Of a stretch of 64,000 nucleotides of DNA, positions 42,740-62,700 are shown piece after piece. The DNA comes from Patescibacteria group bacterium. GTDB taxonomy: Bacteria; Patescibacteriota; Microgenomatia; 0-14-0-10-38-17. Location: NCBI GenBank assembly GCA_050953885.1, contig JBMNNJ010000001.1, forward strand, positions 399,437-463,436. Direction: 5' to 3'. The number at the start of each line of letters is the position of its first letter. The first letter of the stretch is position 1. Below the pieces are notes generated by a model. The model saw only the letters and a program-made list of their open reading frames with translations, ran no database searches and was not told the origin of the DNA. The position numbers and the translations under genes are program-made.

Positions 42740-43735
42740 ATGGAAGAAATTAAATCCGCTCCTAATCCGTGTAAATCCATAATTAGTTTTCTTGCTATCA
42801 CCATCCCCTTTTCTTTCTTCTTATTAATGTTGTTGACGCTGCTAATCAAGCCCACTCCCGTTTTCTCCCAATCTTTCTCTCTCTCCCTCTCACCGCCGGT
42901 GGTTGAGGTGATGATGCAACCGGGAAGAAAAGCTACCTACGCCTTCCAGCTTAAAAACAATTCCTCCTCACCAGTAAACCTTCTCCCCAAGATTATCCCT
43001 TTTCAACCCCAAGGAGAACAAGGTCAAGTTAAATATCCCCCAGAAAACGGCAACTGGCCGGGTCAGGACTATTTTTCTTTTTTAAATGCCGACTTGCAAA
43101 TAAATCAGCCCTTCCTGCTTGCTCCCGATGAGGAAATTCAGCTGGTTTTAAAAATTTCCCTTCCTCAAAACGCTCCCGAAGGCGATTATTATCAAAGCCT
43201 TATTTTGGAACAACTCGCCGCTAACACCCCAAACCAAACTCAAACCCAATTGGTAGGCCAAATCGGCAGTCATATTCTTCTCACCGTTTCCTCCTCGGGA
43301 AAACCAAAAAAAGAAGCCGCCATTGTTGAATTTTTCTCCCCTTCTCTTCTTTTTGGCAAAATATTAGATTCTTTTGATGCTCTTAACCTTGAACTTCGGA
43401 TTAAAAATACCGGCCAGGCCTTTTTCAAACCTTTTGGGGAAATTATCATTTTAAATAACAATGAAGAAAAAGTTGCCTCTCTTCCTCTGCGGCCTGACAA
43501 CATTTTAAAAGACACTACCCGCCAAATTTATTGCCAAGAAGGCCCTTGCCGGGCTGATAAGCTGAACTTTCTTGGTCGTTACCAAGCTCAAGTCCAGTTT
43601 ACCGCTGACGAAAACGGCCCGGTTAGCAAACAAGGTTTTATCTTTTGGGTTCTACCAATTAAATTGATGCTGGGGTTGGTTTTAGGACTGCTTTTGGCTA
43701 TTTTTATCTGGTGGGGATATCGGAAGCGGAAATGA
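42740..43735 (+). CDS. Secreted beta-rich protein with a C-terminal TM anchor
   Basis: Internal Met (MEEIKSAP...) is followed by a signal/TM segment. C-terminal TM helix plus a YRKRK tail. The ORF-track start at 42395 includes the transposase remnant. Confidence 0.5.
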   Translation: MEEIKSAPNPCKSIISFLAITIPFSFFLLMLLTLLIKPTPVFSQSFSLSLSPPVVEVMMQPGRKATYAFQLKNNSSSPVNLLPKIIPFQPQGEQGQVKYPPENGNWPGQDYFSFLNADLQINQPFLLAPDEEIQLVLKISLPQNAPEGDYYQSLILEQLAANTPNQTQTQLVGQIGSHILLTVSSSGKPKKEAAIVEFFSPSLLFGKILDSFDALNLELRIKNTGQAFFKPFGEIIILNNNEEKVASLPLRPDNILKDTTRQIYCQEGPCRADKLNFLGRYQAQVQFTADENGPVSKQGFIFWVLPIKLMLGLVLGLLLAIFIWWGYRKRK

Positions 43736-43867
43736 TAAAAACAAAACACAATATAAGGATAAAAAGAAACATGCTAAGCGCTAAGGTCAAATCTCAAATC
43801 TCAAATATCAAAACTCAAAACTACAACTCAATCCGCCGGCTGGCGGACAAGAATAACGATAATCGCA

Positions 43868-43965
43868 CCTGTCATCCTGACGAAAGTCAGGATCTAATTG
43901 ATTCTGAATCAAGTTCAGAATGACACTAATCGTGGTCGTCATTCCTGAATTAAATTCAGGATGAC
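43868..43965. repeat. Family B hairpin repeats (GTCATCCTGAAYTTGATTCAGGATGAC and the TTCTGAATCAAGTTCAGAATGAC variant). This is a cluster of two or three units.
   Basis: Other copies: 34504-34527 (between the comEC halves), 38329-38402 (inside leuS), 39376-39460 and 45038-45170. Confidence 0.8.
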
Positions 43966-44115
43966 GCCATTCGTTCATTCGCGTTCATTCGCTTTTAATT
44001 CGCACATCCCAGCAATATAGCAATGTGTTTCCTAATTTCTTAATTTCAGCCCCGCCAGGGCGGGGCGAATTTCTTAATTTCTTTTTTAGCAATTCAACAA
44101 TATCGCAATTTAACC

Positions 44116-45126
44116 ATGAAACAACATTACCTTTTCCTTGCTTTTCTGGTTTTTCTTTCCCTCATCTTTCCTCATCCCACCCTTGCCTCAACCACCGTTC
44201 TCTGGCAGAAAATAAGCGAGGAAGGACCAAAAGAAACAATCGGATCTTCAAGCCAGGAAGTGGCTCTTTCTGCGCTGGTAGGCCAAGGGATTTTTACTAT
44301 TGAAGGCTACTCTTCGCCCGGGGCGACTATTTTTCTCACCAGCTCTCAAGGCAACTTAAGCCCACAAACCGTTAAGGCAGATAAAAACGGCTATTTTATT
44401 TTTAAAAATGTTCTCCTGCCGGTAAACCCCGGCGAGCTTTGGTTTCAAGCCCGCGACCAAAAGGGAAATTTTACTACTCCCTTGGCTATTGCCCAGCCGC
44501 CAAGGGAAGTAGAAAAAATTAAGGATGTTTTCCTTCCTCCCACCTTTTCCCAAACCAAAGGGCAAATAATTACCGGTGAAAATGCTTTTTTATGGGGATA
44601 TAGCCTGCCCGACGCTACCGCCGAAATTTATTTTTTCAAAACCCCCACAAAGAAATGGTGGCAAGCTTTTATCGGCCGACCCGCCCTTGCTTTTGAACCT
44701 CTTAAAATAGAAATTAAAACCGACCAAAACGGCTATTTCGAAGTAAATCTTCCTAATACTGCTCGGGGGCACTACCAAATTTTTGCCTCAAGTCAAAAAG
44801 AAGAAAATCCTTCTCCTAAAAGTAATACCCTCTCATTTCGGATTTTGGGAAAATGCGAAACCTTTTGGTTTTTTCTTAAGGCTTTATTCACACGATTAGC
44901 CTTGTTCCTAAAAAAGATTGTCGCTGATTTACTTTTTTGGATTACGATCGAGCTGATTATCTTAATTTATTTAATCTGGAAAATAAGACAAAAAAAAGAA
45001 TTGCCGCTAACCGTGTCACCACAACAAAACAAGGCCATCATTCCTGAATTAAATTCAGGACAGGCTCTGACGAATCCGCCAGCTGGCAGACAGGATCTAA
45101 CTGATTCTGAATCAAGTTCAGAATGA
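44116..45126 (+). CDS. Secreted protein with a C-terminal TM helix. Its last ~40 residues are encoded by family A and family B repeat elements.
   Basis: Signal peptide MKQHYLFLAFLVFLSLIFPHPTLAS. C-terminal TM helix (LLFWITIELIILIYLIW). The tail ...NPPAGRQDLTDSESSSE is translated from repeat copies at 45038-45125. Confidence 0.5.
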   Translation: MKQHYLFLAFLVFLSLIFPHPTLASTTVLWQKISEEGPKETIGSSSQEVALSALVGQGIFTIEGYSSPGATIFLTSSQGNLSPQTVKADKNGYFIFKNVLLPVNPGELWFQARDQKGNFTTPLAIAQPPREVEKIKDVFLPPTFSQTKGQIITGENAFLWGYSLPDATAEIYFFKTPTKKWWQAFIGRPALAFEPLKIEIKTDQNGYFEVNLPNTARGHYQIFASSQKEENPSPKSNTLSFRILGKCETFWFFLKALFTRLALFLKKIVADLLFWITIELIILIYLIWKIRQKKELPLTVSPQQNKAIIPELNSGQALTNPPAGRQDLTDSESSSE

Positions 45127-45240
45127 CGCCCGAGTTATTTTAACAAAATTCAGAATGACGATTGCGCTATCCCTAAATTTATCAGAAATAACGCCCACCA
45201 CAGAATGGCAACACCGAGGGTTACCACCAAAAGAGAAAGC

Positions 45241-45269
45241 TTGACAAAAAAACTTTATTAGTTTATGCT
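45241..45269 (+). promoter_or_regulatory. Sigma70-like promoter TTGACA-17 nt-TATGCT, placed so that the transcript of the 45277 gene would be leaderless or have a very short leader
   Basis: TTGACA at 45241-45246, a 17-nt spacer, then TATGCT at 45264-45269. The ATG is at 45277. Confidence 0.35.
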
Positions 45270-45276
45270 TTAGGAA

Positions 45277-45708
45277 ATGGCCGAAGAAAAAAAAAGGAGC
45301 TTGGCACCAGTTTTGGCGATCGCCATTGTTTTAATTTTAGTGGGGGTGGCGATGTTCTTATCCCAACAGGAAATTATTTTTCGGGGCCAAGCCTCTCCTT
45401 CCACCACCTATTCTTTGGCCAATTCCTACCTCTTTGGCTCTCCTCTTTCCGCCGCCGCTAATGGTCAGGAAAAAATTAAAGTCAGCGTTTTTCTCCTTAA
45501 CCAACAAGGATTAGGCGTGGATAAAAAACAAATTACCCTAAAAACCCAGCCAAGTGGGGGGTTAAACATCGAAGCCAGCCAACCCACCACCGATAAATCC
45601 GGCCAAGCTATTTTCTATCTTTCTTCCTCCACCCCGGGCAGTTTTGAAATAAGCGCCCAGGTAGAGGGACAGGAGTTCCCCCAAAAAATAAGCGTTCACT
45701 TCCGATAA
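45277..45708 (+). CDS. Membrane-anchored bacterial Ig-like (Big_1/invasin-like) domain protein
   Basis: TM anchor, then a Big_1-like pattern (KVSVFLLNQQGLGVDKKQITLKT...TDKSGQAIFYLSSSTPGSFEISAQV). An A9 homopolymer at 45287-45295 lies inside codons 4-7. Confidence 0.5.
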   Translation: MAEEKKRSLAPVLAIAIVLILVGVAMFLSQQEIIFRGQASPSTTYSLANSYLFGSPLSAAANGQEKIKVSVFLLNQQGLGVDKKQITLKTQPSGGLNIEASQPTTDKSGQAIFYLSSSTPGSFEISAQVEGQEFPQKISVHFR

Positions 45709-46340: not shown

Positions 46341-46720
46341 AAGAACCCTACCCTCCTTCTTCTTTCCACTTCTTAATATTAAGATGTCTTAATTTACCTT
46401 TTGATATGCGGCTAAAATTCGCATGAAATTCATGTGAAAAAATACCCGCAAACTTCTGCGGTAATTACTAAAGCTATTTCTCCATTTTTAGGGCCTATCT
46501 AAAACCATCAAAATATATCAACTTTAAAAAATAGGGGACTTGACAAACATTTTATAATAGTGTACGCTTTTTATAATTCTGATAATTTATGATAATTTAA
46601 GGCTAAAATTTTATTACCGCAAAAATCATGAACAATCAAAAGGCATCAAACCAAATAGTAGACTTTCTTACTGTTTTTTTGATTTTTTTAATGAGTTTTA
46701 TTTGGCTGTTTATTTAACAT

Positions 46721-47203
46721 ATGCCCCAAACCCTGCTCTCCTCTTTCCGGCTTTATCTTAAAGCCCAAGGGAAAAAGGAAAACACCATCAGGAATTATCT
46801 TCAGGACATTGATCACTTTTTCTCTTGGCTTTCCTCCCAAATTAAAGATTCTTCACTGCAAGCGCTTCTTAACGACCCTAACAAAATAGCTCAAAACATA
46901 ACGGTTAAAAATTTAACTGTCTATCAGCGATTTTTGGAAAAAAATGAAGTTTCCCCTACCACTATCAACCGCCGCCTTTCCTCTCTTCGCCAATTGACAA
47001 AGTTTTTCCTTTCTCAAGGTTGGTTAAAAGAAGACCCAATAAAAAAATTAGCCAATATCTCCATTGAAAAAGAAACCGATAAAACTTCGCAAATTCTGGA
47101 AAAGTTTGCCAAAGCGCTTGAAGAAGAAGGGAAAAGCAAAACCACCATTAGAAATTATCTTTCTGACGTGAAGGGGTTTTTGGAATGGCACGAAAAAGAT
47201 TAA
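46721..47203 (+). CDS. Small protein made of tandem phage-integrase-N-terminal-like (SAM-like/core-binding) modules, with no catalytic domain
   Basis: Three ~35-aa modules of the pattern FxxYLxxxGxSxxTIxxYLxxxxxFxxW: SFRLYLKAQGKKENTIRNYLQDIDHFFSWL, VYQRFLEKNEVSPTTINRRLSSLRQLTKFF and LEKFAKALEEEGKSKTTIRNYLSDVKGFLEW. Confidence 0.5.
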   Translation: MPQTLLSSFRLYLKAQGKKENTIRNYLQDIDHFFSWLSSQIKDSSLQALLNDPNKIAQNITVKNLTVYQRFLEKNEVSPTTINRRLSSLRQLTKFFLSQGWLKEDPIKKLANISIEKETDKTSQILEKFAKALEEEGKSKTTIRNYLSDVKGFLEWHEKD

Positions 47204-47215
47204 AAAGTTAAAAAA

Positions 47216-47776
47216 ATGACCAACAGAATTATTTTGCCTCACGGCAATTATCGTCAGCTTAAATCGTTCCAAACTACAACAATTATTTACGATTTCACGA
47301 TGGCTTTTTGTAATCAATACCGGTCCCTCCTGACTTACAAGAACTACGAGCAAATGATCGGTGGTGCCAGATCGGGTAAGCAAAATATCGCCGAAGGCAG
47401 TCAGGTTTCTGGCACTTCTAAAAAAACAGAGATAAAACTTACCAGCGTTGCCCGTGGGTCACTTGAAGAATTGCTTCAAGATTGCCTTGATTTTCTTCGC
47501 CAAAACAATCTTGTTTTGTGGGATAAAAACGATCCCCGGGCTATTACCATCCGCAAGATTGCTTATAAGCCTGATCGGTCTTATGAGTCCTACAAGTCCT
47601 ATCTTAAAGACCCGGAAAGCGCCGTCAACTGCCTAATTTGCTTAATTCATCAGGCTAATTTTCTTCTTGACCGTCAGCTTGAAGCTTTAGAAAAAGATTT
47701 TTTAGAAAATGGCGGCTTCACTGAAAGGCTTTATCGGGAAAGAAGCGAAGCAAGAAAAAAGCAAAAATATGACTAA
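47216..47776 (+). CDS. Four-helix-bundle protein (23S rRNA intervening-sequence protein / Avd-like family), long form
   Basis: Family motifs NIAEGS...S and ARGSLEEL in the expected spacing. The stop overlaps the start of the giant gene (ATGACTAA). Confidence 0.55.
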   Translation: MTNRIILPHGNYRQLKSFQTTTIIYDFTMAFCNQYRSLLTYKNYEQMIGGARSGKQNIAEGSQVSGTSKKTEIKLTSVARGSLEELLQDCLDFLRQNNLVLWDKNDPRAITIRKIAYKPDRSYESYKSYLKDPESAVNCLICLIHQANFLLDRQLEALEKDFLENGGFTERLYRERSEARKKQKYD

Positions 47777-50700
47777 TAGGACTAATAGGACCAATAATAG
47801 GACCAACTCAGCGGGCTTTTTAGAACCATTGCAAATTCAGGCTTACCTGAAAAGGCTTAAAAAGGAAGGGGCTTCTCCGGCCACTCTTAAACGCAAGGAG
47901 GCGGCCTTAAAAAAATTCCAAAGCTGGCAGGGAAAAGAATACGGACCAAAGTATCCCTTGCCAAAAGGCGCCCCTAAGCCCAAAAAGATAATCTCTAAGA
48001 AGGGAATTTTCCCCAAGGCTTTTCCTCCTTTTTTAAGATATTTTTCTTTCCTAATCGGTTTGGTGCTTTTGGCTAGTTTAGGCTGGGGAGTTTATAGCCA
48101 ATTTTTTGCCCAGCCGAAAGAAACCCCCTCCATGGCCTTCCCTACTAACCCGCCGCTCTTAATTTCTTTTCAGGGTCAGCTTACCGATGATGACGGCACT
48201 CCGATTAATGCCACTATTCCTGCCATTTTCCGCCTTTATAATGTGGACGAGGGTGGTACCGCTCTTTGGGAAGAGCAAAAAAATGTCTCCACCGACCAGG
48301 ACGGCATTTTCAATACTTTCTTGGGTGACACCGCCACGCTGGATCCGGCCATTTTTCGCGACAATATGAATCTTTGGCTGGCAATTGAAATCGACAACGA
48401 CGGGGAAATGGAACCCCGTCAGCAAATTGCCACCGTGGGCTATGCTTTCAATTCCCGCTATCTTCAAGGTTATGAGGCCACCACAGCAGCTACCGCTAAC
48501 ACCATACCGGTTATTAATGCCGATGGCGATTTAATTTTAGCCTCCTCCTCTCCCGCCATTGAAGCCACCTCCGGCACCTTTGGCCTTAAAGGCGAAGCGA
48601 TTACTATTCAATCAACCGGCGGCACGGGCGGCGGGGATATTTTAATTCAGCCCGATGCCGATACCCAAGGACAGGTAATTATCTACTCGGCAACTACCGC
48701 CGACAATTCTTTTACCGTTCAAAATAGCAATATCACCACTGGCTCGCTAATTTATGGCGAGGCCGGTACTAGCGCTAGCGGTTATAACCTGCTAAAACTT
48801 ACCTCCGGAAGCCTTTTAACCGATAAGTTTGTGGTTGACTATGCCGGCAACACCGACATCGCCGGCAACTTAACCGTTGACAGTTCCGGATTTTTTGGCA
48901 ATAGTGTCGGCATCGGCACCACCAGCCCCGGGGCAACCTTGGATGTTAACGGCAACTTACGAATTGGCACCCTGACAACAGGCTCCACCGATACCGTCTT
49001 AACCCACTCCAACAATATTGTCCAGCAAAGAACAATTGATCCCCGGGTTTGGGGGGAAACCTTGGTAGACGGCAGCGGTAGTGCCGGCTATGTGGCCTAC
49101 TGGCAGGATGCCAATACCCTGACGGGGGAGCAATACCTCGCCACCTCAAGAGGTGGCACCGGCGATGACACCTCCTCTACCACTGGTGTCCCCTACATTT
49201 CTTCCGGCAACTGGCAATATGAATCAAGTTTAAATGTGAGCCGGGGCGGCACTGGGTTTTCTTCTTTAGCAGCTGGCTCCCTAATCTACGGTTCCGGCTC
49301 CTCCCCAATGAACGCTTTAGCAATTGGCACTACTAACTATGTTTTAACCTCCAATGGTTCTGCTCCTAACTGGTCACTAATTAGCCAGGCAAATATCAGT
49401 CCTGATTCTCTAGACTTTGACCAATTCCAGGATACCCTAGATCTGGATACTGACTTAGTCTTAAATCAAGCCGCTTACACCTGGACGCAAAACTTTACCG
49501 GAGCAACTACTACCGGCTTAACTTACAACGCTAATGCTTTAACTTCAGGAAAAGGGGTATATGTTTCTTCTACTTCAACTGGTTTAACAGGAAACTTGGC
49601 AGAAATAAGTCTGTCGGGAAACAATGCCGCCAACACCGGTAATGTTTTAAGACTGGCCCAAACTGGCGCCTTATCAGCGGCAATTCCTTTAATGGTGACC
49701 AATCTTGGCGCCGGCGCTTCCTTCAGGGTTAACGATGAAACGGGCGACAATGACAGCACCCCCTTTATTATTGATGCTTCCGGCGCTGTGGGGGTGGGAA
49801 CAGCCATGCCAAACGCCTCGGCAATTCTTGATTTAACTTCAACCGCCAAGGGCTTTCTTGCTCCAAGAATGACTACCAGCCAAAGAGATGCTATTGTTAA
49901 CCCCGCCGCCGGCCTTTTAATCTATAACACCACCACCAATCAATATAACATGTATAACGGCACGGGCTGGACTCTTATTGGCGGCGGAGATGTTTCTTGG
50001 AGTAGCTTAATTGACCCGACAGAAAATCTCTTGCTAAACCATGGGGCCTACACCACCACCTTTACCTGGGGAGCCTCAACCGGAGCTAATAACCTCTTTA
50101 CCCTTACCGATACGGCCAACAATACCGGCACGGGCTACCTTTTAAACCTTAATACCGCCACGGGGTCAAGTCTTAAACCTTTAAGGGTGGCTTCGGCCGG
50201 AGTTGAGGCTTTGGCCATCGATGCCGCCGGCAATGTGGGGATCGGGACAACGAGCCCGGGAGAAAAGTTGGATGTAGTTGGAGCAATCCGTTCCAGTGGA
50301 GTCGATGTATCATCTTTAAATCCAGGAACAAGCACCACCGGAGGTTTATATTTAGGTGCACATATGGGACACCTTATACTTGACTTAAGAAATAATGATT
50401 CCAATGACTCAATTGCTTTCCGATATTCAGCGGCAAACAACACAGTAGTAGATACTATTGGTCTAGTTATGAAAGGCGGAACTGGCAACGTCGGCATCGG
50501 CACCACCAGCCCCGGGGCAACCTTGGATGTTAACGGCAACTTACGAATTGGCACCCTGACAACAGGCTCCACCGATACCGTCTTAACCCACTCCAACAAT
50601 ATTGTCCAGCAAAGAACAATTGATCCCCGGGTTTGGGGGGAAACCTTGGTAGACGGCAGCGGTAGTGCCGGCTATGTGGCCTACTGGCAGGATGCCAATA

Positions 50701-53700
50701 CCCTGACGGGGGAGCAATACCTCGCCACCTCAAGAGGTGGCACCGGCGATGACACCTCCTCTACCACTGGTGTCCCCTACATTTCTTCCGGCAACTGGCA
50801 ATATGAATCAAGTTTAAATGTGAGCCGGGGCGGCACTGGGTTTTCTTCTTTAGCAGCTGGCTCCCTAATCTACGGTTCCGGCTCCTCCCCAATGAACGCT
50901 TTAGCAATTGGCACTACTAACTATGTTTTAACCTCCAATGGTTCTGCTCCTAACTGGTCACTAATTAGCCAGGCAAATATCAGTCCTGATTCTCTAGACT
51001 TTGACCAATTCCAGGATACCCTAGATCTGGATACTGACTTAGTCTTAAATCAAGCCGCTTACACCTGGACGCAAAACTTTACCGGAGCAACTACTACCGG
51101 CTTAACTTACAACGCTAATGCTTTAACTTCAGGAAAAGGGGTATATGTTTCTTCTACTTCAACTGGTTTAACAGGAAACTTGGCAGAAATAAGTCTGTCG
51201 GGAAACAATGCCGCCAACACCGGTAATGTTTTAAGACTGGCCCAAACTGGCGCCTTATCAGCGGCAATTCCTTTAATGGTGACCAATCTTGGCGCCGGCG
51301 CTTCCTTCAGGGTTAACGATGAAACGGGCGACAATGACAGCACCCCCTTTATTATTGATGCTTCCGGCGCTGTGGGGGTGGGAACAGCCATGCCAAACGC
51401 CTCGGCAATTCTTGATTTAACTTCAACCGCCAAGGGCTTTCTTGCTCCAAGAATGACTACCAGCCAAAGAGATGCTATTGTTAACCCCGCCGCCGGCCTT
51501 TTAATCTATAACACCACCACCAATCAATATAACATGTATAACGGCACGGGCTGGACTCTTATTGGCGGCGGAGATGTTTCTTGGAGTAGCTTAATTGACC
51601 CGACAGAAAATCTCTTGCTAAACCATGGGGCCTACACCACCACCTTTACCTGGGGAGCCTCAACCGGAGCTAATAACCTCTTTACCCTTACCGATACGGC
51701 CAACAATACCGGCACGGGCTACCTTTTAAACCTTAATACCGCCACGGGGTCAAGTCTTAAACCTTTAAGGGTGGCTTCGGCCGGAGTTGAGGCTTTGGCC
51801 ATCGATGCCGCCGGCAATGTGGGGATCGGGACAACGAGCCCGGGAGAAAAGTTGGATGTAGTTGGAGCAATCCGTTCCAGTGGAGTCGATGTATCATCTT
51901 TAAATCCAGGAACAAGCACCACCGGAGGTTTATATTTAGGTGCACATATGGGACACCTTATACTTGACTTAAGAAATAATGATTCCAATGACTCAATTGC
52001 TTTCCGATATTCAGCGGCAAACAACACAGTAGTAGATACTATTGGTCTAGTTATGAAAGGCGGAACTGGCAACGTCGGCATCGGCACCACCAGCCCCGGG
52101 GCAACCTTGGATGTTAACGGCAACTTACGAATTGGCACCCTGACAACAGGCTCCACCGATACCGTCTTAACCCACTCCAACAATATTGTCCAGCAAAGAA
52201 CAATTGATCCCCGGGTTTGGGGGGAAACCTTGGTAGACGGCAGCGGTAGTGCCGGCTATGTGGCCTACTGGCAGGATGCCAATACCCTGACGGGGGAGCA
52301 ATACCTCGCCACCTCAAGAGGTGGCACCGGCGATGACACCTCCTCTACCACTGGTGTCCCCTACATTTCTTCCGGCAACTGGCAATATGAATCAAGTTTA
52401 AATGTGAGCCGGGGCGGCACTGGGTTTTCTTCTTTAGCAGCTGGCTCCCTAATCTACGGTTCCGGCTCCTCCCCAATGAACGCTTTAGCAATTGGCACTA
52501 CTAACTATGTTTTAACCTCCAATGGTTCTGCTCCTAACTGGTCACTAATTAGCCAGGCAAATATCAGTCCTGATTCTCTAGACTTTGACCAATTCCAGGA
52601 TACCCTAGATCTGGATACTGACTTAGTCTTAAATCAAGCCGCTTACACCTGGACGCAAAACTTTACCGGAGCAACTACTACCGGCTTAACTTACAACGCT
52701 AATGCTTTAACTTCAGGAAAAGGGGTATATGTTTCTTCTACTTCAACTGGTTTAACAGGAAACTTGGCAGAAATAAGTCTGTCGGGAAACAATGCCGCCA
52801 ACACCGGTAATGTTTTAAGACTGGCCCAAACTGGCGCCTTATCAGCGGCAATTCCTTTAATGGTGACCAATCTTGGCGCCGGCGCTTCCTTCAGGGTTAA
52901 CGATGAAACGGGCGACAATGACAGCACCCCCTTTATTATTGATGCTTCCGGCGCTGTGGGGGTGGGAACAGCCATGCCAAACGCCTCGGCAATTCTTGAT
53001 TTAACTTCAACCGCCAAGGGCTTTCTTGCTCCAAGAATGACTACCAGCCAAAGAGATGCTATTGTTAACCCCGCCGCCGGCCTTTTAATCTATAACACCA
53101 CCACCAATCAATATAACATGTATAACGGCACGGGCTGGACTCTTATTGGCGGCGGAGATGTTTCTTGGAGTAGCTTAATTGACCCGACAGAAAATCTCTT
53201 GCTAAACCATGGGGCCTACACCACCACCTTTACCTGGGGAGCCTCAACCGGAGCTAATAACCTCTTTACCCTTACCGATACGGCCAACAATACCGGCACG
53301 GGCTACCTTTTAAACCTTAATACCGCCACGGGGTCAAGTCTTAAACCTTTAAGGGTGGCTTCGGCCGGAGTTGAGGCTTTGGCCATCGATGCCGCCGGCA
53401 ATGTGGGGATCGGGACAACGAGCCCGGGAGAAAAGTTGGATGTAGTTGGAGCAATCCGTTCCAGTGGAGTCGATGTATCATCTTTAAATCCAGGAACAAG
53501 CACCACCGGAGGTTTATATTTAGGTGCACATATGGGACACCTTATACTTGACTTAAGAAATAATGATTCCAATGACTCAATTGCTTTCCGATATTCAGCG
53601 GCAAACAACACAGTAGTAGATACTATTGGTCTAGTTATGAAAGGCGGAACTGGCAACGTCGGCATCGGCACCACCAGCCCCGGGGCAACCTTGGATGTTA

Positions 53701-56700
53701 ACGGCAACTTACGAATTGGCACCCTGACAACAGGCTCCACCGATACCGTCTTAACCCACTCCAACAATATTGTCCAGCAAAGAACAATTGATCCCCGGGT
53801 TTGGGGGGAAACCTTGGTAGACGGCAGCGGTAGTGCCGGCTATGTGGCCTACTGGCAGGATGCCAATACCCTGACGGGGGAGCAATACCTCGCCACCTCA
53901 AGAGGTGGCACCGGCGATGACACCTCCTCTACCACTGGTGTCCCCTACATTTCTTCCGGCAACTGGCAATATGAATCAAGTTTAAATGTGAGCCGGGGCG
54001 GCACTGGGTTTTCTTCTTTAGCAGCTGGCTCCCTAATCTACGGTTCCGGCTCCTCCCCAATGAACGCTTTAGCAATTGGCACTACTAACTATGTTTTAAC
54101 CTCCAATGGTTCTGCTCCTAACTGGTCACTAATTAGCCAGGCAAATATCAGTCCTGATTCTCTAGACTTTGACCAATTCCAGGATACCCTAGATCTGGAT
54201 ACTGACTTAGTCTTAAATCAAGCCGCTTACACCTGGACGCAAAACTTTACCGGAGCAACTACTACCGGCTTAACTTACAACGCTAATGCTTTAACTTCAG
54301 GAAAAGGGGTATATGTTTCTTCTACTTCAACTGGTTTAACAGGAAACTTGGCAGAAATAAGTCTGTCGGGAAACAATGCCGCCAACACCGGTAATGTTTT
54401 AAGACTGGCCCAAACTGGCGCCTTATCAGCGGCAATTCCTTTAATGGTGACCAATCTTGGCGCCGGCGCTTCCTTCAGGGTTAACGATGAAACGGGCGAC
54501 AATGACAGCACCCCCTTTATTATTGATGCTTCCGGCGCTGTGGGGGTGGGAACAGCCATGCCAAACGCCTCGGCAATTCTTGATTTAACTTCAACCGCCA
54601 AGGGCTTTCTTGCTCCAAGAATGACTACCAGCCAAAGAGATGCTATTGTTAACCCCGCCGCCGGCCTTTTAATCTATAACACCACCACCAATCAATATAA
54701 CATGTATAACGGCACGGGCTGGACTCTTATTGGCGGCGGAGATGTTTCTTGGAGTAGCTTAATTGACCCGACAGAAAATCTCTTGCTAAACCATGGGGCC
54801 TACACCACCACCTTTACCTGGGGAGCCTCAACCGGAGCTAATAACCTCTTTACCCTTACCGATACGGCCAACAATACCGGCACGGGCTACCTTTTAAACC
54901 TTAATACCGCCACGGGGTCAAGTCTTAAACCTTTAAGGGTGGCTTCGGCCGGAGTTGAGGCTTTGGCCATCGATGCCGCCGGCAATGTGGGGATCGGGAC
55001 AACGAGCCCGGGAGAAAAGTTGGATGTAGTTGGAGCAATCCGTTCCAGTGGAGTCGATGTATCATCTTTAAATCCAGGAACAAGCACCACCGGAGGTTTA
55101 TATTTAGGTGCACATATGGGACACCTTATACTTGACTTAAGAAATAATGATTCCAATGACTCAATTGCTTTCCGATATTCAGCGGCAAACAACACAGTAG
55201 TAGATACTATTGGTCTAGTTATGAAAGGCGGAACTGGCAACGTCGGCATCGGCACCACCAGCCCCGGGGCAACCTTGGATGTTAACGGCAACTTACGAAT
55301 TGGCACCCTGACAACAGGCTCCACCGATACCGTCTTAACCCACTCCAACAATATTGTCCAGCAAAGAACAATTGATCCCCGGGTTTGGGGGGAAACCTTG
55401 GTAGACGGCAGCGGTAGTGCCGGCTATGTGGCCTACTGGCAGGATGCCAATACCCTGACGGGGGAGCAATACCTCGCCACCTCAAGAGGTGGCACCGGCG
55501 ATGACACCTCCTCTACCACTGGTGTCCCCTACATTTCTTCCGGCAACTGGCAATATGAATCAAGTTTAAATGTGAGCCGGGGCGGCACTGGGTTTTCTTC
55601 TTTAGCAGCTGGCTCCCTAATCTACGGTTCCGGCTCCTCCCCAATGAACGCTTTAGCAATTGGCACTACTAACTATGTTTTAACCTCCAATGGTTCTGCT
55701 CCTAACTGGTCACTAATTAGCCAGGCAAATATCAGTCCTGATTCTCTAGACTTTGACCAATTCCAGGATACCCTAGATCTGGATACTGACTTAGTCTTAA
55801 ATCAAGCCGCTTACACCTGGACGCAAAACTTTACCGGAGCAACTACTACCGGCTTAACTTACAACGCTAATGCTTTAACTTCAGGAAAAGGGGTATATGT
55901 TTCTTCTACTTCAACTGGTTTAACAGGAAACTTGGCAGAAATAAGTCTGTCGGGAAACAATGCCGCCAACACCGGTAATGTTTTAAGACTGGCCCAAACT
56001 GGCGCCTTATCAGCGGCAATTCCTTTAATGGTGACCAATCTTGGCGCCGGCGCTTCCTTCAGGGTTAACGATGAAACGGGCGACAATGACAGCACCCCCT
56101 TTATTATTGATGCTTCCGGCGCTGTGGGGGTGGGAACAGCCATGCCAAACGCCTCGGCAATTCTTGATTTAACTTCAACCGCCAAGGGCTTTCTTGCTCC
56201 AAGAATGACTACCAGCCAAAGAGATGCTATTGTTAACCCCGCCGCCGGCCTTTTAATCTATAACACCACCACCAATCAATATAACATGTATAACGGCACG
56301 GGCTGGACTCTTATTGGCGGCGGAGATGTTTCTTGGAGTAGCTTAATTGACCCGACAGAAAATCTCTTGCTAAACCATGGGGCCTACACCACCACCTTTA
56401 CCTGGGGAGCCTCAACCGGAGCTAATAACCTCTTTACCCTTACCGATACGGCCAACAATACCGGCACGGGCTACCTTTTAAACCTTAATACCGCCACGGG
56501 GTCAAGTCTTAAACCTTTAAGGGTGGCTTCGGCCGGAGTTGAGGCTTTGGCCATCGATGCCGCCGGCAATGTGGGAATTGGGACGACGAGTCCGGGGGCA
56601 AAGCTACATGTAAATGCTGGTGCAGCACAATTGACAATGGAAAGAGATGAAACCCACATTAACACATGGGATTTCAGAATCACTCAGGAGGCGGGCATCT

Positions 56701-59700
56701 CTGCAAACTCCCTATACCTGAGAGCGTCAGAAAATACAGCCGACTTTGGAATAAGGGCAGCTAATTCTGGGAACGTCCAGTTCATTTTGAAGGGCCCAAC
56801 AGGCAACGTCGGCATCGGGACGACGGCGCCGGGGGCGAAGCTTGATGTTAACGGAACGGGTAGGTTTGCCACTTCCGTGTCTTCGCCTCTTTTTCAAGGT
56901 GATACCGGGGCGGTTACCTTTGGCAATGCTTCCTATGCCACCACCATTGCCGGTTCAGGATTAACCATCTCTCCTACTGCCTGGACAGCCACTCCTACCA
57001 TATCAGGGCTTATTACCGCTACTTTAGGATTAACCGCCAATGGAGCCTTAACCGCCAACAGCACCTTCACTTTAGGAGACGGCGCTGATGCCGGTTCGGT
57101 TAATACCTCAAGTTGGGATATCTCCACCACTGGCGTCGCCTCGGGATTTACCGGCCTTACTTCCTCCGGCACGATCACCTTCTCTTCTCTGGCCGCCAAC
57201 CGACTGGTGACCACCACCACAGGAGGAGAACTAACCACCAGCGCCGAGGGGACTGTCGGCCAGCCCTTACTTTCCGGAGGGACATCCTCCCCCAACTGGG
57301 GGACTCTTGGTCTGGTTTATGGCGGTACCAATGCCGATCTTTCCGGGGTGGCCCAAGGAGGGCTAATTTACAAGGAAACTTCCGCCTTAGCCGGCACCGG
57401 GGCCTTAACGGGAATTCTTCAGGGAAATAACGCCAGCGCCCCCACCGCCATCACCGGCACCGCCAATTATCTGCCCAAATGGTCCTCAACCGCCCCTTAC
57501 CTCACCACCGCTTCCCAAATTTTCGACAGCGGCGCTAATGTCGGCATTGGCAATAGCAATCCTCAAGCCCTGCTTCATGTGGGCGCCGGCGGCACGCCCA
57601 ATTATGCTTCAAGCGGCGATGTTTATATCCAAAACGATCTCGAAGTGGACGGCACCATTTACGGCGCGCTGGATATTACCGACGCCACTTTTGACTTTTT
57701 GGAAGTTAAGCGGGCGGCCACTTTCTCCGCCCAAATCGCCTCGGATATTCCCATTACCGTTAAAAACACCGGCGGCAATGAGGTGGCGCGGTTCACCAAC
57801 GAGGGCAAGCTAAGACTTGGTTCTGCCGGCGCGCCCACCGACACTTTAGATATTGATGGCGACGCTGATATTTCCGGCAACTTGGATGTGGGCAATGGCC
57901 TTGATGTTTTAGGCGCCAACTTCACCGTCGGCGGCGCTAACTTTACCGTTAGCCAAGCCGGCACGGTGACCGGCGGCACCTACAACGGCCAAACTATTTC
58001 CTCCACTGCCAGCTTTACCGGCACTCTTAGCGTCGCTTCAACCTTCAACGCTAATAGCAATGTGGGCTTGGGAAACGAAGCCACCGACACCATCAACGCC
58101 GCCGGGCAATTTGTCTCCGGCCTTATCCCCCAAACAAACAGTTATAACCTTGGCTCCCCCACTAACCACTGGGGCGCTTTGTACGTTGATTCCATTTACG
58201 GCGGTCAGGTGGGCGAATTTGACTTTCTTAAGGCCCGGGGCGCCACCCTCTCGGCCGAAATCCCCACCGACAAAACCTTGGTTTTGGAAGGCCTTGCTTC
58301 CGGCCATACCGCCAATTTAATTGAAGCCAACGCCAACGGCGCCACCGCTCTCACCCTCTCCCCGGCCGGCAATTTAACCTTAGGAGGAACGATAACTTTA
58401 CCCAACGGTAACACCTTAACCGGCGTGGCTTCTTATATTCAATTTAACAATGGCATAAGCGTTGGCGGGGGAACCACCTATCGGCTCACCTCCACTGGCG
58501 ACGCATATCTTAATAATCTCTACACCGGCGGAACGCAAAGGCTTTCTTCAACCGGCGCCCTTGCCAACATTACCGACTACAGCCAATCCTCCGGCAATTT
58601 CGCCATTTCGGGAACTGGCACTTTCTCTACCGCCACCGGCAATATCTCCCTAAATGGAGCCACCACCGTAGCCGACGGCAAATCTTTCACCGCCAACGGG
58701 CCGGTGACCTTGGGCGACGGGGGCGATGCGGTGGCCATTAACAGCAACATTTGGGATATTACCTCGGCCGGCGTCGCTTCCGGCTTAACCCAATTAACCG
58801 TTGACAACCTCCAGCTTGACGGCAACACTCTTTCTTCAACCACGGACAACATTACTCTTGACGCCGCCGCTTACTTGGTGATTGCCGACCAAATTGCCTC
58901 AAGCTTAATTCCTTCCGCCACCAACACTTATGATTTGGGCTCCCCGGAGAACTACTGGGACGATGCTTACATCAACACTTTAACCGCTAATTCGCTAAAT
59001 TTTGATTTTATCGCCGCCCGCGGCGCCACTTTTTCGGCCGAAATCCCCACCGACAAAACCTTGGTTCTTAATGCCGCTACCGGCCAAACCGCCAATCTTT
59101 TGGAAATCAATTCCGCCCCCGGCGCCAGCGGCGACTTAATGGTGGTCACCGGCGGCGGCAATGTCGGCATTGGCAACAGCAATCCGGGAACATATAAATT
59201 AGATGTGGCGGGCACGGGAAGATTTAATTCCACCGCTAATCCGGGGTTAACGGTTGGCAACGGCGCTATTGGCTATTTAAAAATTGGCGGCTCAACTATT
59301 TATGATAACAACAGCGACTTAACTTTAGACTCCGATACTGCCTTGGTGATTTTAGCCGATGATTTGCAAATTAACGGCAATGATATTTATGATTCCGGCG
59401 CAAACCAGAGAATCAATTTGGGCGCCACCACCACTTTATACAACACCACCACCATCCTTTCGGGCACCACCGCCTTAACCGCCTCTTCCTTGGCAACCTT
59501 TACCACCGCCTCCTCTTTGGCAATGCCCGCCACCACCTCTTTAACCTTAGGCGGTTCAGCAACCATCTACGGCGGCACGACGGCTTCAGGAACACTAACT
59601 CTTCAGTCAACTTCAAACGCCACCAAAGGCAATATCCTAATTAATCCTTCTGGCGGCAATGTCGGCATCGGGACGACGGGGCCGGGGGCGAAATTATCTA

Positions 59701-62700
59701 TTAATGGCTCGCCAGCGATAGAGTTTGCTTCTTGCGGGACTTCTTACGGAGGTTGTTATATCAAGGAAGGATGGGGCCCTGAATTATATTCCAATACATC
59801 GCAACCTTTTCAAGTTTTAAATACTTCACTTTTGGTTGGATATGACCAAACAGATTCAACCGCCAGAGGAAGCGGTAATTTACTCGTAAGCGGCAATGTC
59901 GGCATCGGGACGACGGGGCCGAACACTGAACTAAGTTTAAATCACGGTTATATAAATTTTGAGCCCTCGCTAACCTCGTGGCTAAAAACTGGAGGAGAAG
60001 GAATACTTATGTGGAACTCTAATGATATTGAGTGGCTCGAATCAACATACGAGAGCGGATACGGCCACAGATTATATTCCATCGATCCTGGGGCAGGTGC
60101 AGTTACACACCTTCGGCTAGCCGCAAGAAATAACTCTGCCTCGTGGACAGATATGGTTACTTTTGTTTCTAACGGCAACGTCGGCATCGGGACGACGGGG
60201 CCACAACATAAATTACATATTTATACGACAACCGCACAAGAGGGAATAATTATTAACGCTGGCACTTATCCAGAAATCAGATTTGAAGAGGCTGGAACAG
60301 TAAGAGGCTATCTTAGCGTTGCTGGAAGCGCAGGAGGATATGGAACAGGCACATTAGCTGATTCTATGATACTTCGCGCTGAAGGTAATATGCATCTTAT
60401 TACGAATGCAGGGACTGTGGTACAAACATTAACCAGTGGCGGCAATGTGGGCATTGGGACAACAACTCCGGGGGCAAGACTGGATGTTAACGGCAATTTA
60501 AAAATCGCCACCCTGACAACCGGCGCCACCAATACGGTTTTAACCCACAGCGGCAATATTGTCCAGCAAAGAACCATTGATTCCCGAGTTTGGGGATCAG
60601 CGTTGGTTGATTATTCCGGCACCTCGGCTAACTACATTCCCAAAATGCTTGACGCCGACACGATTACCAATTCCCTAATTTACGAAGCCGCCAGCAGCCG
60701 CCGCATCGGCATTAGCACCACCAGCCCGGGTTCAAAATTAACCGTTGCCGGCGGCGCTTCCTATTTTGGCGCCCTGCCTGCCCCCACCGGAGTAGTGGCC
60801 ACTCCCACCTCGGGAGGCGGCTTAGTGGCGGGAACTTACTATTATGTGGTCAACGCCTTTGACAGCAACAACCTTTCCTCAAACAAATCAAGCCAGGTTT
60901 CCTGCACGGTTGATGGCTCTACCACCACCGCCTGCCAAATTTCCTGGGTGGCCGTTCCCGGCGCCACCAACTACCGCGTTTACGGCAGAGCCAGCAACGC
61001 CCAAAACCAATACTGGCAAACCACTTCTCTCTACTACACCGACACCGGCGCCGCCGGCGCCAGCGACACGCCGCCGGGACCAATCTCCGCTTTCTTTACC
61101 GGCAATATAAAAGCGGAACGCTTTGCGGATTCGGCTAACGACACCTACTACCTTGATCCGGCCTATGCCACTCTTTCCCTCACCACCGCCGGAGCGGCGG
61201 GCATCGGCTACTCGGCCGGCCAGATGAGCGGTGCCACCGCCAAGCTGGCCGTTGACGGCAATGTGGGAATTGGGACGACGAGTCCGGGGGCAAAGCTACA
61301 TGTAAATGCTGGTGCAGCACAATTGACAATGGAAAGAGATGAAACCCACATTAACACATGGGATTTCAGAATCACTCAGGAGGCGGGCATCTCTGCAAAC
61401 TCCCTATACCTGAGAGCGTCAGAAAATACAGCCGACTTTGGAATAAGGGCAGCTAATTCTGGGAACGTCCAGTTCATTTTGAAGGGCCCAACAGGCAACG
61501 TCGGCATCGGGACAGTTTTCGGCGAAGCAGATACTACAGGAAAATTGAACGTAAGAAAAGATAGCACAGCAGATGGAATGATTAGCGATGTTCTTACGTT
61601 GCGCAATCATTGGCATACCGTTACTAATATAGGAACTGGAATTGCATTGAGATTTAAACAAGGATCAACCAGCGAAACCGGAAAGCTTGTTGATATTGGT
61701 TCAATTGCTGAAAGTGGGTGGAGCAACGCAGTCGGTTTCTTTGTTAAGACTGGTGGTACTGAAAGGTTAAGAATAAGTAACGGCGGCAACGTCGGCATCG
61801 GGACAGCGAGTCCAAGTTACCCACTACACGTATATAAAAATGCAGGTGACTGGACGGCGCGCTTCCAAAACACTTCGGGATCCATAGATATTGGACCAGC
61901 CAATGGTAGTGGAGCCCACATTTATACAGACCTAAGCCAATTTTTCTTTAATCAACCCATTACCCTCACGGGCACCAGCAGTATTTCTTCTTATTCCACG
62001 AATAATCTCTATCTTAAAACAGGTACGCAGGCTAACACAAGGATGACAATTCTTGCTAGTAATGGCAATGTCGGCATCGGGACGACGGGGCCTGTTCAAA
62101 AATTGCATGTTGAAGGCAATTGTGTAACGGGAGATACAAAGTTAGCAATTTTTGAGGATCACAGTTCACAGTTCACAGTTCACAGCAATGCTCCTTCAGA
62201 GCAGATCACAGATCACAGATCACAGTTCACGGAAATACAAATAAAGGATATAAAATCAGGAACAAAAGTATATTCGCTAAATCAAGAAACTGGGAAACTA
62301 GAACCTGCTAGGATCAACAAACTTCTTGACATGGGAACAAAGCCTGTATTTAAATTAACTACAGAGGGTGGAAAAGAGATTCGCACCACTGGCAACCACC
62401 CATATCTTGCCCAACTATCTTATGAACAATACCAGCAAAGAGTTCAACTTCGAGAAACTGGAAGTTTGGAAGAAGAGTATGGCCTTAGTCAAGGCGATCT
62501 ATCAGTTGCTCGAGAGTTTTCCCAAACACGAGAGGTATGGTCTAGTGGATCAACTTCGCCGAGCAGCAACCTCAATTCTTCTGAATATCGCCGAGGGGAA
62601 CGGGAGGTACAGCCACAAGGAATTTATCCAATTTCTCTATCAGGCCAGGGGCAGTCTCTACGAGGTGGTGGCTTGTCTCAAACTAACTCAAGAGCTGGGT

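What the first reader, a model, noticed from the sequence alone, without database searches (positions are those of the whole stretch)
46721..47950. Orphan integrase-N-terminal-like (core-binding/SAM-like) modules: three in a small ORF and a fourth at the N-terminus of the giant protein
Four ~35-aa modules fit the pattern of the tyrosine-recombinase N-terminal core-binding domain (FxxYLxxxGxSxxTIxxYLxxxxxF). None is attached to a catalytic domain. One is the first folded segment of the giant fibre protein, before its TM anchor. DNA-binding recombinase arms reused as stand-alone or cytoplasmic-tail modules of a surface fibre locus is unusual. They could anchor the locus to a regulator or a recombination process.
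Basis: inference. Interest (0 to 1): 0.55.

Follow-up and report, generated by a model that had tools for sequence, protein, structure and literature searches.

The report
Split recombinase-arm domains on giant fibre
A giant surface fibre of an ultra-small (CPR) bacterium carries, on its inner end, two copies of the DNA-gripping arm of a recombinase without the enzyme part; here the second copy is broken across two genes, and this unstudied design recurs in hundreds of related genomes.

Summary
ORF1 (46721-47203, 160 aa) matches Phage_int_SAM_1 at E 1.7e-17. The first 53 residues of the giant protein (start 47769) carry a fourth module.

The four modules are not equivalent orphans. They are alpha-hairpins of two alternating types, and together they make two complete core-binding (CB) domains. 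The second CB domain is split between its hairpins. Its first half ends ORF1 and its second half opens the giant protein, ahead of a basic linker and one membrane helix.

Joined in silico, the two halves give one end-to-end domain match of 48.7 bits, against about 23 bits each.

The design is a large family in the Microgenomates group of CPR bacteria, with 373 clusters at E<=1e-30 and 276 species genomes. Many members have CB-CB-membrane helix-fibre in one chain. Split and fused forms intermix on a tree.

Most likely the small protein docks on the fibre's cytoplasmic tail by completing the fold. No catalytic domain exists in the window, so it is not a recombinase. What the module binds (DNA is my guess) is untested.

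ORF2 between the halves is a selfish-type four-helix-bundle cassette. This junction hosts different cassettes in relatives.

The parts
46628..46717 (+). Mini-ORF of 29 aa (MNNQKASNQIVDFLTVFLIFLMSFIWLFI). It is a predicted single membrane helix and ends 3 nt before the ORF1 start. It is an associated part only in this sub-clade.
   Evidence: It is conserved at the same place in L007, L008 and L009, abutting or overlapping the ORF1 start. dN/dS is 0.18 against L007. It has no Pfam hit. It is absent in distant loci such as L001.
46721..47203 (+). ORF1, a 160-aa cytoplasmic protein made of one complete core-binding (CB) domain plus the first alpha-hairpin of a second CB domain.
   Evidence: PF02899 E 1.7e-17. 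AlphaFold2 pLDDT 86.6. Fold matches are to Xer, IntI and lambda Int CB domains. Homologues were found: 38 and 373 clusters at E<=1e-30. dN/dS is 0.12.
46727..47017 (+). CB domain 1 (ORF1 aa 3-99), made of hairpin A (helices 3-15 and 20-40) and hairpin B (helices 62-74 and 79-99). It contains the near-invariant motif TINRRLSSLR.
   Evidence: Full-length profile match 3-83/83.
47081..47197 (+). Hairpin A' (ORF1 aa 121-159), the first half of CB domain 2. The protein ends 1 residue later.
   Evidence: It matches PF13495 positions 1-35 and PF02899 positions 2-34. It covers positions 2-41 of the natural domain-2 profile with 45.3 bits. dN/dS is 0.13. All 37 aligned homologues stop just after this hairpin.
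47216..47776 (+). ORF2, a 186-aa four-helix-bundle protein with the suffix domain. It is an inserted cassette of the type found in 23S rRNA intervening sequences, and it sits in the break of CB domain 2. It is not part of the CB module.
   Evidence: TIGR04258 E 3.8e-22 and TIGR02436 E 1.8e-6. The cassette is absent at this junction in L001-L003, L005, L006 and L008. It is present in L007, L009, L015 and L046, and is replaced by a GxxExxY gene in L024.
47769..64000 (+). Giant fibre gene. It is more than 5410 codons long and runs off the window end. The start ATG at 47769 overlaps the ORF2 stop.
   Evidence: Translation. An alternative in-frame ATG lies about 60 nt upstream. Close homologues begin MTNR....
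47817..47927 (+). Hairpin B' (giant protein aa 17-53), the second half of CB domain 2.
   Evidence: It matches PF02899 profile positions 44-78. It covers positions 56-93 of the natural domain-2 profile with 31.4 bits, E 2.5e-11. Helices at aa 20-32 and 37-61 in the AlphaFold2 fusion model have pLDDT of about 90. The same half-domain opens the downstream gene in 68 of 75 split loci.
47928..48038 (+). Lysine-rich cytoplasmic linker (giant protein aa 54-90).
   Evidence: Residues 1-87 have net charge +17 and pI 10.7, against -1 after the membrane helix. By the positive-inside rule the N-terminus is cytoplasmic.
48039..48107 (+). Single membrane helix (aa 91-113, YFSFLIGLVLLASLGWGVYSQFF) acting as a signal-anchor.
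   Evidence: The sequence is. A membrane helix follows the half-domain at 60-150 residues in most related loci.
48150..48341 (+). First extracellular domain (aa 128-191). It weakly resembles the cell-proximal N-terminal domain of Bdellovibrio MAT fibres.
   Evidence: NF053851 Bdello_MAT_N E 1e-6, 28.6 bits, which is below the cut-off of 60. The role of that domain is described in PMC10769870.
46539..46566 (+). Conserved TTGACA-containing block, CTTGACAA..TTTTATAATAGTGTA, upstream of the mini-ORF. It is a putative operon promoter.
   Evidence: It is invariant in the window, L007, L008 and L009. The consensus promoter scan did not list it. Promoter function is inferred only.

Best explanation
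ORF1 and the first ~55 residues of the giant protein together encode one cytoplasmic module of two core-binding (CB) domains. The domains are of the tyrosine-recombinase type and have no catalytic domain.

The module belongs to the inner, N-terminal end of a giant surface fibre. The order along the fibre protein is cytoplasmic N-terminus, one membrane helix, then the fibre outside the cell.

In this genome the module is made in two pieces. ORF1 supplies CB domain 1 plus the first alpha-hairpin of CB domain 2. The giant protein supplies the second hairpin. The break lies in the loop between the two hairpins, and a four-helix-bundle cassette gene now sits in it.

My inference is that after translation the free hairpin of ORF1 packs against the hairpin on the fibre's tail. 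This would complete the four-helix CB fold and dock the small protein on the fibre base.

Shown: the domain identities, the split, its conservation, and the existence of one-chain relatives.

Inferred: the docking itself. Also inferred is what the module does. I think it most likely holds nucleic acid (DNA) or a partner protein at the membrane under the fibre. It is not a recombinase.
For: - **The two halves add up to one domain.** The virtual fusion of the ORF1 C-terminus and the giant N-terminus gives a single PF02899 match over positions 1-78/83. It scores 48.7 bits (E 9e-13), against 22.5 and 23.3 bits for the halves alone. The L001 pair behaves the same way, at 42 bits.
- **The halves fit a natural second domain.** Against a profile of natural, unbroken second domains the fusion scores 76.3 bits. 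The ORF1 part covers profile positions 2-41 and the giant part covers 56-93.
- **Domain 2 is a full copy of domain 1.** A profile comparison of domain 1 against natural domain 2 gives probability 99.94%, E 4.5e-37.
- **One-chain relatives exist.** P0060, P0064, P0078, P0090 and P0144 have CB-CB-linker-membrane helix-fibre in a single protein. P0033 (split) and P0060 (fused) are 67% identical over the module.
- **The split is conserved.** All eight loci read by eye show it, as do 68 of 75 split loci in the survey.
- **The half-domains are under purifying selection.** dN/dS is 0.13 for hairpin A' and 0.10-0.14 for the giant N-terminus.
- **The split is real, not recoding.** Stops are TAA in 22 of 31 adjacent junctions, frame offsets are mixed, and a restart ATG lies close by.
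- **Topology.** The tail has net charge +17 before the membrane helix.
- **Fold.** The AlphaFold2 model and its PDB matches are.
Against: - No complex prediction or experiment was possible. The AlphaFold2 fusion model was built from a single sequence and gave no coordinates, so packing of hairpin A' against B' is not shown.
- Hairpin A' could instead pair with itself to form a homodimer, or pack on domain 1.
- The function of the module is unknown. DNA binding is inferred only from retained recombinase-like polar and basic motifs (TIRNYLSD, TINRRLSSLR, RK..SL.KF) and from net positive charge.
- I found no candidate DNA target.
- The search profile was built from split forms, so the ratio of split to fused forms is biased. 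The neighbour-joining tree behind the count of 18 switches is rough.
Confidence: 0.65

Rival explanations
1. ORF1 is an independent soluble DNA-binding regulator of the fibre operon. Its extra hairpin serves self-association, and the hairpin on the giant protein has a separate role. The two never assemble.
For: ORF1 always sits directly upstream of the giant gene, behind a conserved promoter-like block. The CB domain is a DNA-binding fold. ORF1 is basic, with pI 9.4.
Against: Fused relatives carry exactly these two hairpins as one contiguous domain. Split and fused forms interchange between close relatives. That is hard to explain if the halves had separate roles. In fused forms the whole module is tethered to the membrane.
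Confidence: 0.15
2. The CB modules are accessory DNA-binding arms for a recombinase encoded elsewhere. That recombinase would rearrange the fibre gene (its 1584-bp repeats) or move the cassettes at the junction.
For: The junction carries different cassettes in close relatives: a four-helix-bundle gene here and a GxxExxY gene in L024. 9-nt arrays flank the cassettes. The giant gene has 4.84 perfect tandem repeats.
Against: There is no catalytic domain in the 64-kb window or in the neighbourhoods read. The cassettes are of the type found in rRNA intervening sequences and may simply use a permissive gap inside an operon. Most split loci have no cassette at all. Membrane tethering in fused forms fits poorly with a role in a recombination complex.
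Confidence: 0.07
3. The two ORFs are joined during translation, by programmed frameshift or stop read-through, into one protein. On this view the split is only apparent.
For: In 10 of 31 adjacent junctions a single in-frame stop separates the ORFs.
Against: Frame offsets are mixed (16, 10 and 5). The stops are mostly TAA, and a nearby ATG restart is the rule. In this window a 561-nt gene in another frame lies between the two ORFs.
Confidence: 0.03
4. The modules are decayed leftovers of an integrase gene, that is, pseudogene fragments.
For: Public annotation calls the small proteins 'site-specific integrase' or 'XerD'.
Against: The length is conserved at 150-190 aa across 125 divergent members. 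dN/dS is 0.12. No catalytic remnants are present. The locus lies in a housekeeping chromosomal region, and the family holds 373 clusters.
Confidence: 0.02

Closest known systems
Core-binding (N-terminal SAM-like) domain of tyrosine recombinases (XerC/XerD/XerA, integron integrase, lambda Int, Cre)
   Same: The fold and sequence motifs are the same: two orthogonal alpha-hairpins, S..T..NY..D..F..W and T.NRRLS.LR. Pfam matches are above cut-off, and the best structural matches are 4a8e, 2a3v, 5hxy and 1z19.
   Different: There is no catalytic domain anywhere in the locus. The domain is duplicated in tandem, placed before a membrane helix of a giant fibre, and in this genome broken across two genes.
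Membrane-bound one-component regulators of the ToxR/CadC type (established knowledge, not tested here)
   Same: The topology is the same: an N-terminal cytoplasmic DNA-binding-type domain, one membrane helix, and a large outside part.
   Different: The DNA-binding fold differs (CB versus winged helix). The outside part is a fibre of more than 5000 aa, not a sensor domain. DNA binding and regulation are not shown here.
Gene fission/fusion pairs ('Rosetta stone' proteins) and naturally split domains such as split inteins (established knowledge)
   Same: One domain is encoded by two adjacent genes, with one-chain relatives. This implies that the parts assemble non-covalently.
   Different: The break lies inside a small four-helix domain. 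It recurs at the same loop many times (at least 18 switches on a rough tree). No splicing chemistry is involved.
Bdellovibrio MAT (mosaic adhesive trimer) fibres (PMC10769870)
   Same: The first outside domain of the giant protein weakly resembles the conserved cell-proximal N-terminal domain of MAT fibres. Both are long surface fibres of bacteria that live on other bacteria.
   Different: MAT proteins start with a cleaved signal peptide and have no cytoplasmic tail. The match is below the family cut-off.
Four-helix-bundle (TIGR02436/TIGR04258) and GxxExxY (TIGR04256) genes of 23S rRNA intervening sequences (applies to ORF2 only)
   Same: ORF2 passes both family cut-offs. It is flanked by short periodic repeats with complementary stretches, as intervening-sequence cassettes are.
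   Different: It sits inside a protein-coding operon, in the break of a split domain, rather than in an rRNA gene.

Membership tests
Tyrosine recombinase (XerC/XerD/integrase) | N-terminal core-binding (SAM-like) domain | tested here: met
   PF02899 63.9 bits against a cut-off of 22.3. Fold matches are to recombinase CB domains.
Tyrosine recombinase (XerC/XerD/integrase) | C-terminal catalytic domain (PF00589) with the R-K-H-R-H/W-Y active site | tested here: not met
   ORF1 ends at residue 160. XerC/XerD equivalog scores are 57 and 53 bits against cut-offs of 335 and 330, and cover only the N-terminal ~100 positions. There is no PF00589 hit in ORF1, in the giant N-terminus or in any window ORF of 150 aa or more.
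Tyrosine recombinase (XerC/XerD/integrase) | A cognate recombination site (inverted core repeats around a 6-8 bp spacer) | tested here: inconclusive
   Repeat and k-mer searches of the upstream region and the junction found short conserved blocks and 9-nt arrays. None has core-site architecture.
Pfam Phage_int_SAM_1 domain family | Score above the gathering cut-off over the full profile | tested here: met
   ORF1 aa 8-100 covers profile 3-83/83. The virtual domain 2 covers profile 1-78/83 at 48.7 bits. The giant half alone scores 19.9-23.3 bits, which is borderline.
CB-CB-membrane helix-fibre family of Microgenomates (defined here) | Two tandem CB domains, fused or split at the last inter-hairpin loop, followed by a basic linker, one membrane helix and a long fibre | tested here: met
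   The window pair fits profiles built from family members. Synteny with a Big_1 protein upstream is conserved.
ToxR/CadC-type membrane-bound regulators | OmpR-type winged-helix DNA-binding domain at the cytoplasmic N-terminus | tested here: not met
   Only CB-type domains are found in the tail. The resemblance is in topology only.
ToxR/CadC-type membrane-bound regulators | Sequence-specific DNA binding and transcriptional control | not testable with these tools
   This needs gel-shift, DAP-seq or reporter assays.
Four-helix-bundle protein with suffix domain (ORF2) | TIGR02436 and TIGR04258 above cut-off | tested here: met
   28.1 bits against a cut-off of 24, and 77.9 bits against a cut-off of 40.
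Bdellovibrio MAT fibre | Conserved N-terminal beta-rich domain above the family cut-off, following a signal peptide | tested here: not met
   28.6 bits against a cut-off of 60. The giant protein has an uncleaved anchor with a cytoplasmic tail instead of a signal peptide.

The most novel reading that the evidence does not exclude
The tandem CB module is a membrane-tethered DNA-binding tail. It would link a giant host-contact fibre directly to the chromosome. One version is a ToxR-like route from fibre engagement to gene expression. Another is a tether that holds the fibre's own 16-21-kb gene at the membrane for export during translation. On this reading, splitting the module makes the DNA-binding part exchangeable or separately dosed. 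The splits themselves would have been created by cassette insertions into the inter-hairpin loop.
Probability: 0.2. Interest if true: 0.8.

Novelty: new variant of a known kind. Interest (0 to 1): 0.6.

Why it matters
CPR bacteria live attached to other microbes, and how they sense and hold their hosts is largely unknown. This locus shows that a whole group of them (Microgenomates) places recombinase-type DNA-gripping domains on the cytoplasmic end of giant surface fibres. It also shows that evolution repeatedly cuts this module in the middle of a domain without losing either half.

- **A missing link.** If the module binds DNA, it would be a direct physical connection between a host-contact organelle and the genome.
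- **A model for protein evolution.** The family offers many independent examples of a domain split across two genes that presumably re-forms by fold complementation.
- **An annotation error.** Hundreds of these small proteins are labelled 'site-specific integrase/XerD' in public databases although they cannot recombine DNA.

Tried and rejected
- **Recoding (frameshift or read-through) as the cause of the split.** Rejected. Frame offsets are mixed, TAA stops dominate, and a whole gene intervenes here.
- **Integrase pseudogene.** Rejected on conservation and dN/dS.
- **Catalytic domain nearby.** None found in 36 window ORFs scanned with Pfam. A local profile search found no second CB copy in the six-frame translation.
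- **Known RNA families.** The window gave only tRNAs and the L10 leader. The junction elements of L008 and L009 gave no credible hit.
- **Covariation test of the RNA-like junction element.** The alignment was too poor, with only 5 weak pairs.
- **Shared DNA motif upstream of the operon as a possible CB target.** Only AT-rich words, a CCGCAAA word and a promoter-like block turned up, and nothing looked like a core site.
- **Packing of hairpins A' and B' in an AlphaFold2 fusion model.** The model folded (pLDDT 77; hairpin B' about 90), but the output gives no coordinates or contacts. The Foldseek result cannot tell the two domains apart.
- **PDB sequence search with the family profile.** This gave one hit, a Xer-like chain labelled RaiA in 9i5v, which was not informative.
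- **Literature.** No paper in the held library links SAM-like/CB domains to CPR giant proteins.
- **Tandem Repeats Finder.** It missed the 1584-bp repeat because its period limit is 500. I measured the repeat by self-offset instead.
Full report
**What is at the coordinates.**

The interval 46721-47950 holds three things on the + strand.
- ORF1 (46721-47203, 160 aa).
- ORF2 (47216-47776, 186 aa).
- The start of a giant ORF. Its ATG is at 47769, it overlaps the ORF2 stop, and it stays open for more than 5410 codons to the window end.

A 29-codon mini-ORF (46628-46717) ends 3 nt before ORF1.

The window is a housekeeping chromosomal stretch of a small-genome bacterium. It carries SHMT, ThyX, TopA, DprA, PBP2, MreB/C, ribosomal proteins, ArgRS, LeuRS and ComEA/ComEC. 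Relatives of the locus come from Shapiro-, Gottesman-, Roizman-, Woese-, Beckwith- and Blackburnbacteria, which are Microgenomates within the CPR.

**Checking the observation.**

ORF1 matches Phage_int_SAM_1 at 63.9 bits, E 1.7e-17, and also matches SAM_4 and SAM_5.
- Residues 8-100 span the entire 83-position profile. Reader modules 1 and 2 are therefore the two halves of one complete core-binding (CB) domain.
- Residues about 117-159 (module 3) match only profile positions 1-35.
- Giant residues 19-53 (module 4) match only positions 44-78.

An AlphaFold2 model of ORF1 built with 37 homologues has pLDDT 86.6. It shows three helical hairpins at 3-15/20-40, 62-74/79-99 and 121-135/140-159. Its best PDB matches are all CB domains of tyrosine recombinases: archaeal Xer 4a8e, integron integrase 2a3v, XerA 5hxy, lambda Int and Cre. 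Foldseek gives probability about 1.0, with E-values of 0.05-0.2 as expected for a domain this short.

The modules alternate between two types (A-B-A'-B').

**The central result: a domain split across two genes.**

I joined the ORF1 C-terminus to the giant N-terminus in silico.
- The fusion gives a single end-to-end PF02899 match (positions 1-78/83, 48.7 bits, E 9e-13). The halves alone score 22.5 and 23.3 bits. The pair from the distant locus L001 behaves the same way.
- A profile of domain 1 from 172 family members aligns to a profile of the natural, unbroken second domain from 40 one-chain relatives with probability 99.94%, E 4.5e-37.
- Against that second-domain profile, the window fusion scores 76.3 bits. 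ORF1 covers profile positions 2-41 and the giant protein covers positions 56-93.

The break therefore lies in the loop between the two hairpins of CB domain 2.

**The split is conserved, and one-chain relatives exist.**

Thirty-eight close-to-distant homologues of ORF1 are all 137-196 aa. All stop a few residues after the DVxxFLxW helix.

In L001 (36% identity, 290-kb contig) the small ORF is followed 1 nt later by a 7082-aa protein that opens with LLSKYEEYLLRQGLSPVSIERKLSSVRAYLTF. This is hairpin B'. L002, L003, L005, L006, L007 and L008 show the same arrangement.

An exhaustive profile search found 373 clusters at E<=1e-30 and 1496 at E<=1e-10. Of 185 sequences in hand, 125 end within 30 residues of hairpin A'. 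About 50 continue past it.

The long ones, such as P0060 (2148 aa), P0064, P0078 (2590 aa), P0090 (2652 aa) and P0144, read CB-CB-linker-membrane helix-fibre in one chain. Variants with one CB domain (P0045) and small proteins with 2.5 CB domains (P0046, P0050) also exist.

On a rough neighbour-joining tree, split and fused states change at least 18 times. P0033 (split) and P0060 (fused) are 67% identical.

In a survey of 90 loci, 75 small ORFs are split forms (three of these loci duplicate others). Of these, 68 have a hairpin-B' match downstream on the same strand, usually followed by a membrane helix 60-150 residues later.

**The split is genuine.**
- In 31 directly adjacent junctions the frame offsets are 1 (16 cases), 0 (10 cases) and 2 (5 cases).
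- The stops are TAA in 22 cases, TAG in 7 and TGA in 2.
- An ATG follows within a few bases.
- In this window a whole gene lies between the two ORFs.

This is ordinary operon restart, not recoding.

Both halves are under purifying selection against L007 and L024. dN/dS is 0.12 for ORF1, 0.13 for hairpin A' and 0.10-0.14 for the giant N-terminus.

**Topology.**

Giant residues 1-87 have net charge +17 and pI 10.7. Residues 91-113 form a hydrophobic helix. The next 30 residues have net charge -1. By the positive-inside rule the half-domain is cytoplasmic, as is ORF1, which has no signal or membrane segment.

After the membrane helix comes a domain that weakly resembles the cell-proximal N-terminal domain of Bdellovibrio MAT fibres (E 1e-6, below cut-off). 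It is followed by 4.84 perfect copies of a 1584-bp unit.

**How it most likely works.**

Shown:
- The locus encodes a catalytically empty, two-domain CB module at the cytoplasmic base of a membrane-anchored giant fibre.
- The module is delivered in two polypeptides.

Inferred:
- The free hairpin of ORF1 completes the fold with the hairpin on the fibre tail and so docks ORF1 there. I put this at about 0.65.

The grounds for the inference are threefold. One-chain relatives exist, which is the fusion-implies-interaction argument. Split and fused states switch freely, which is tolerable only if the halves reassemble. A half-domain that cannot fold alone is nonetheless under selection.

The purpose of the module is not shown. 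The recombinase-type polar and basic motifs (TIRNYLSD, TINRRLSSLR; RK..SL.KF in B') persist across hundreds of diverged members that have no enzyme domain, and the module is basic. I therefore favour nucleic-acid binding at the membrane, at about 0.35. A protein scaffold is the alternative. It is not a recombinase, because the catalytic domain is absent from the locus, the window and all the neighbourhoods I read.

**ORF2 and the junction.**

ORF2 is a four-helix-bundle protein with the suffix domain (TIGR04258 E 3.8e-22). This kind of gene is known from 23S rRNA intervening sequences. The junction content varies among relatives.
- Empty or nearly empty: L001-L003, L005, L006 and L008.
- The same kind of cassette as here: L007, L009, L015 and L046.
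- Short four-helix-bundle genes: L018, L066 and L070.
- A GxxExxY gene: L024, whose ORF1 is 90% identical to the window's.
- A NYN-like gene: L036.
- A recurrent ~55-aa ORF with no family hit: at least 10 loci.

The break in the domain is thus a hot spot for small cassettes. Either the gap inside the operon is simply a permissive site, or cassette insertion created the splits. I could not decide between these.

**Comparison with what is known, and novelty.**

The closest families are the CB domains of XerC/D-type recombinases. The fold is the same, but the defining catalytic domain was tested and not met.

In topology the design resembles ToxR/CadC-type membrane-bound regulators, but the DNA-binding fold is different and the function is untested.

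I found no paper linking CB/SAM-like domains to CPR giant proteins in the held library. Public annotation calls the small proteins 'site-specific integrase/XerD'.

I rate it a new variant of a known kind. A known domain appears in an undescribed architecture, with a recurrent break inside the domain.

**Caveats.**
- No multimer prediction or coordinates were available.
- The fusion model was built from a single sequence.
- The search profile favours split forms.
- The tree is approximate.
- Many record titles ('uncultured Gammaproteobacteria', one 'Helarchaeota', one 'Omnitrophota') look like placeholder or mis-binned labels. I did not verify them.

Noticed in passing
window 47216-47776; L007 1958-2512; L009 2461-3669; L015, L018, L024, L036, L046, L066, L070 junctions: The gap between the small CB gene and the giant gene is a hot spot for small cassettes of the type found in rRNA intervening sequences. 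These include four-helix-bundle genes (with or without suffix), a GxxExxY gene and a NYN-like gene. L024 has an ORF1 90% identical to the window's but carries a GxxExxY gene where the window has the four-helix-bundle gene, so turnover is fast.
   Followed up: partly
window 47772-47806 and 47574-47605: A 9-nt periodic array (TAATAGGAC, 3 copies) encodes the giant protein's first residues, MTNRTNRTNNRTN. A stretch inside ORF2 is 78% complementary to it over 32 nt and covers the giant start codon at 47769. This may form an RNA stem that couples giant translation to ORF2 translation. Similar arrays flank the cassettes in L007, L009 and L024.
   Followed up: partly
window 46628-46717: A 29-aa hydrophobic mini-ORF lies directly upstream of ORF1. 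It is conserved in L007, L008 and L009 (consensus ..IIDF.TALLIF..SFLWLF) with dN/dS 0.18. It is probably a tiny membrane protein of the same operon.
   Followed up: partly
window 48906-56575: The giant gene contains 4.84 tandem copies of a 1584-bp (528-aa) unit with zero mismatches over 6086 nt of self-overlap. This is either a very recent expansion or an assembly collapse or duplication artefact.
   Followed up: partly
window 62121-63095: A 325-aa intein (Intein_splicing PF14890, E 5e-22; CVTGDTKLA ... VANGILAHN|T) interrupts a GNVGIGTT-type repeat of the giant fibre protein.
   Followed up: partly
L025, L027, L030, L032, L033, L039, L047, L059, L068, L071 (between small ORF and giant gene): A recurrent ~55-aa ORF has the motif AYQSLKxWFDPAxEGxPY and a basic tail. 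It shows synonymous third-position variation, which suggests a real coding gene. It has no hit in NCBIfam. It is not present in the window.
   Followed up: partly
L008 4150-4225; L009 2930-3020; L011, L014, L017, L021 junctions: An RNA-like element sits between the small ORF and the giant gene. Its pattern is GGCCGG...AAAAC-UGGGGGAAA...CCCGACCC followed by a T-rich run. It has long-range complementary ends (for example GCGGTGGACC/GGTCCACCGC in L014). It could be an attenuator or terminator. It has no Rfam match, and the alignment was too poor for a covariation test.
   Followed up: partly
window 33500-39126 (- strand): ComEC (called as two ORFs: Lactamase_B part at 33500-34450 and Competence part at 34582-35802), ComEA and LeuRS lie next to the fibre locus. 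The same neighbours appear in the distant loci L001 and L006. Whether this link between DNA-uptake genes and the fibre locus is functional or just conserved gene order is unknown.
   Followed up: no
window 39624-45708 (+ strand): Six genes upstream of the locus are mostly without Pfam hits. One is a TPR protein and two are Big-like proteins, including the 143-aa Big_1 protein at 45277-45708. The set is syntenic with L001, L003 and L008, and may be fibre assembly factors.
   Followed up: no
PDB 9i5v chain 14: The only PDB chain matched by sequence with the family profile (E 8e-5) is a 401-aa Xer-like chain deposited under the name 'Ribosome-associated translation inhibitor RaiA'. The label looks wrong.
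   Followed up: no
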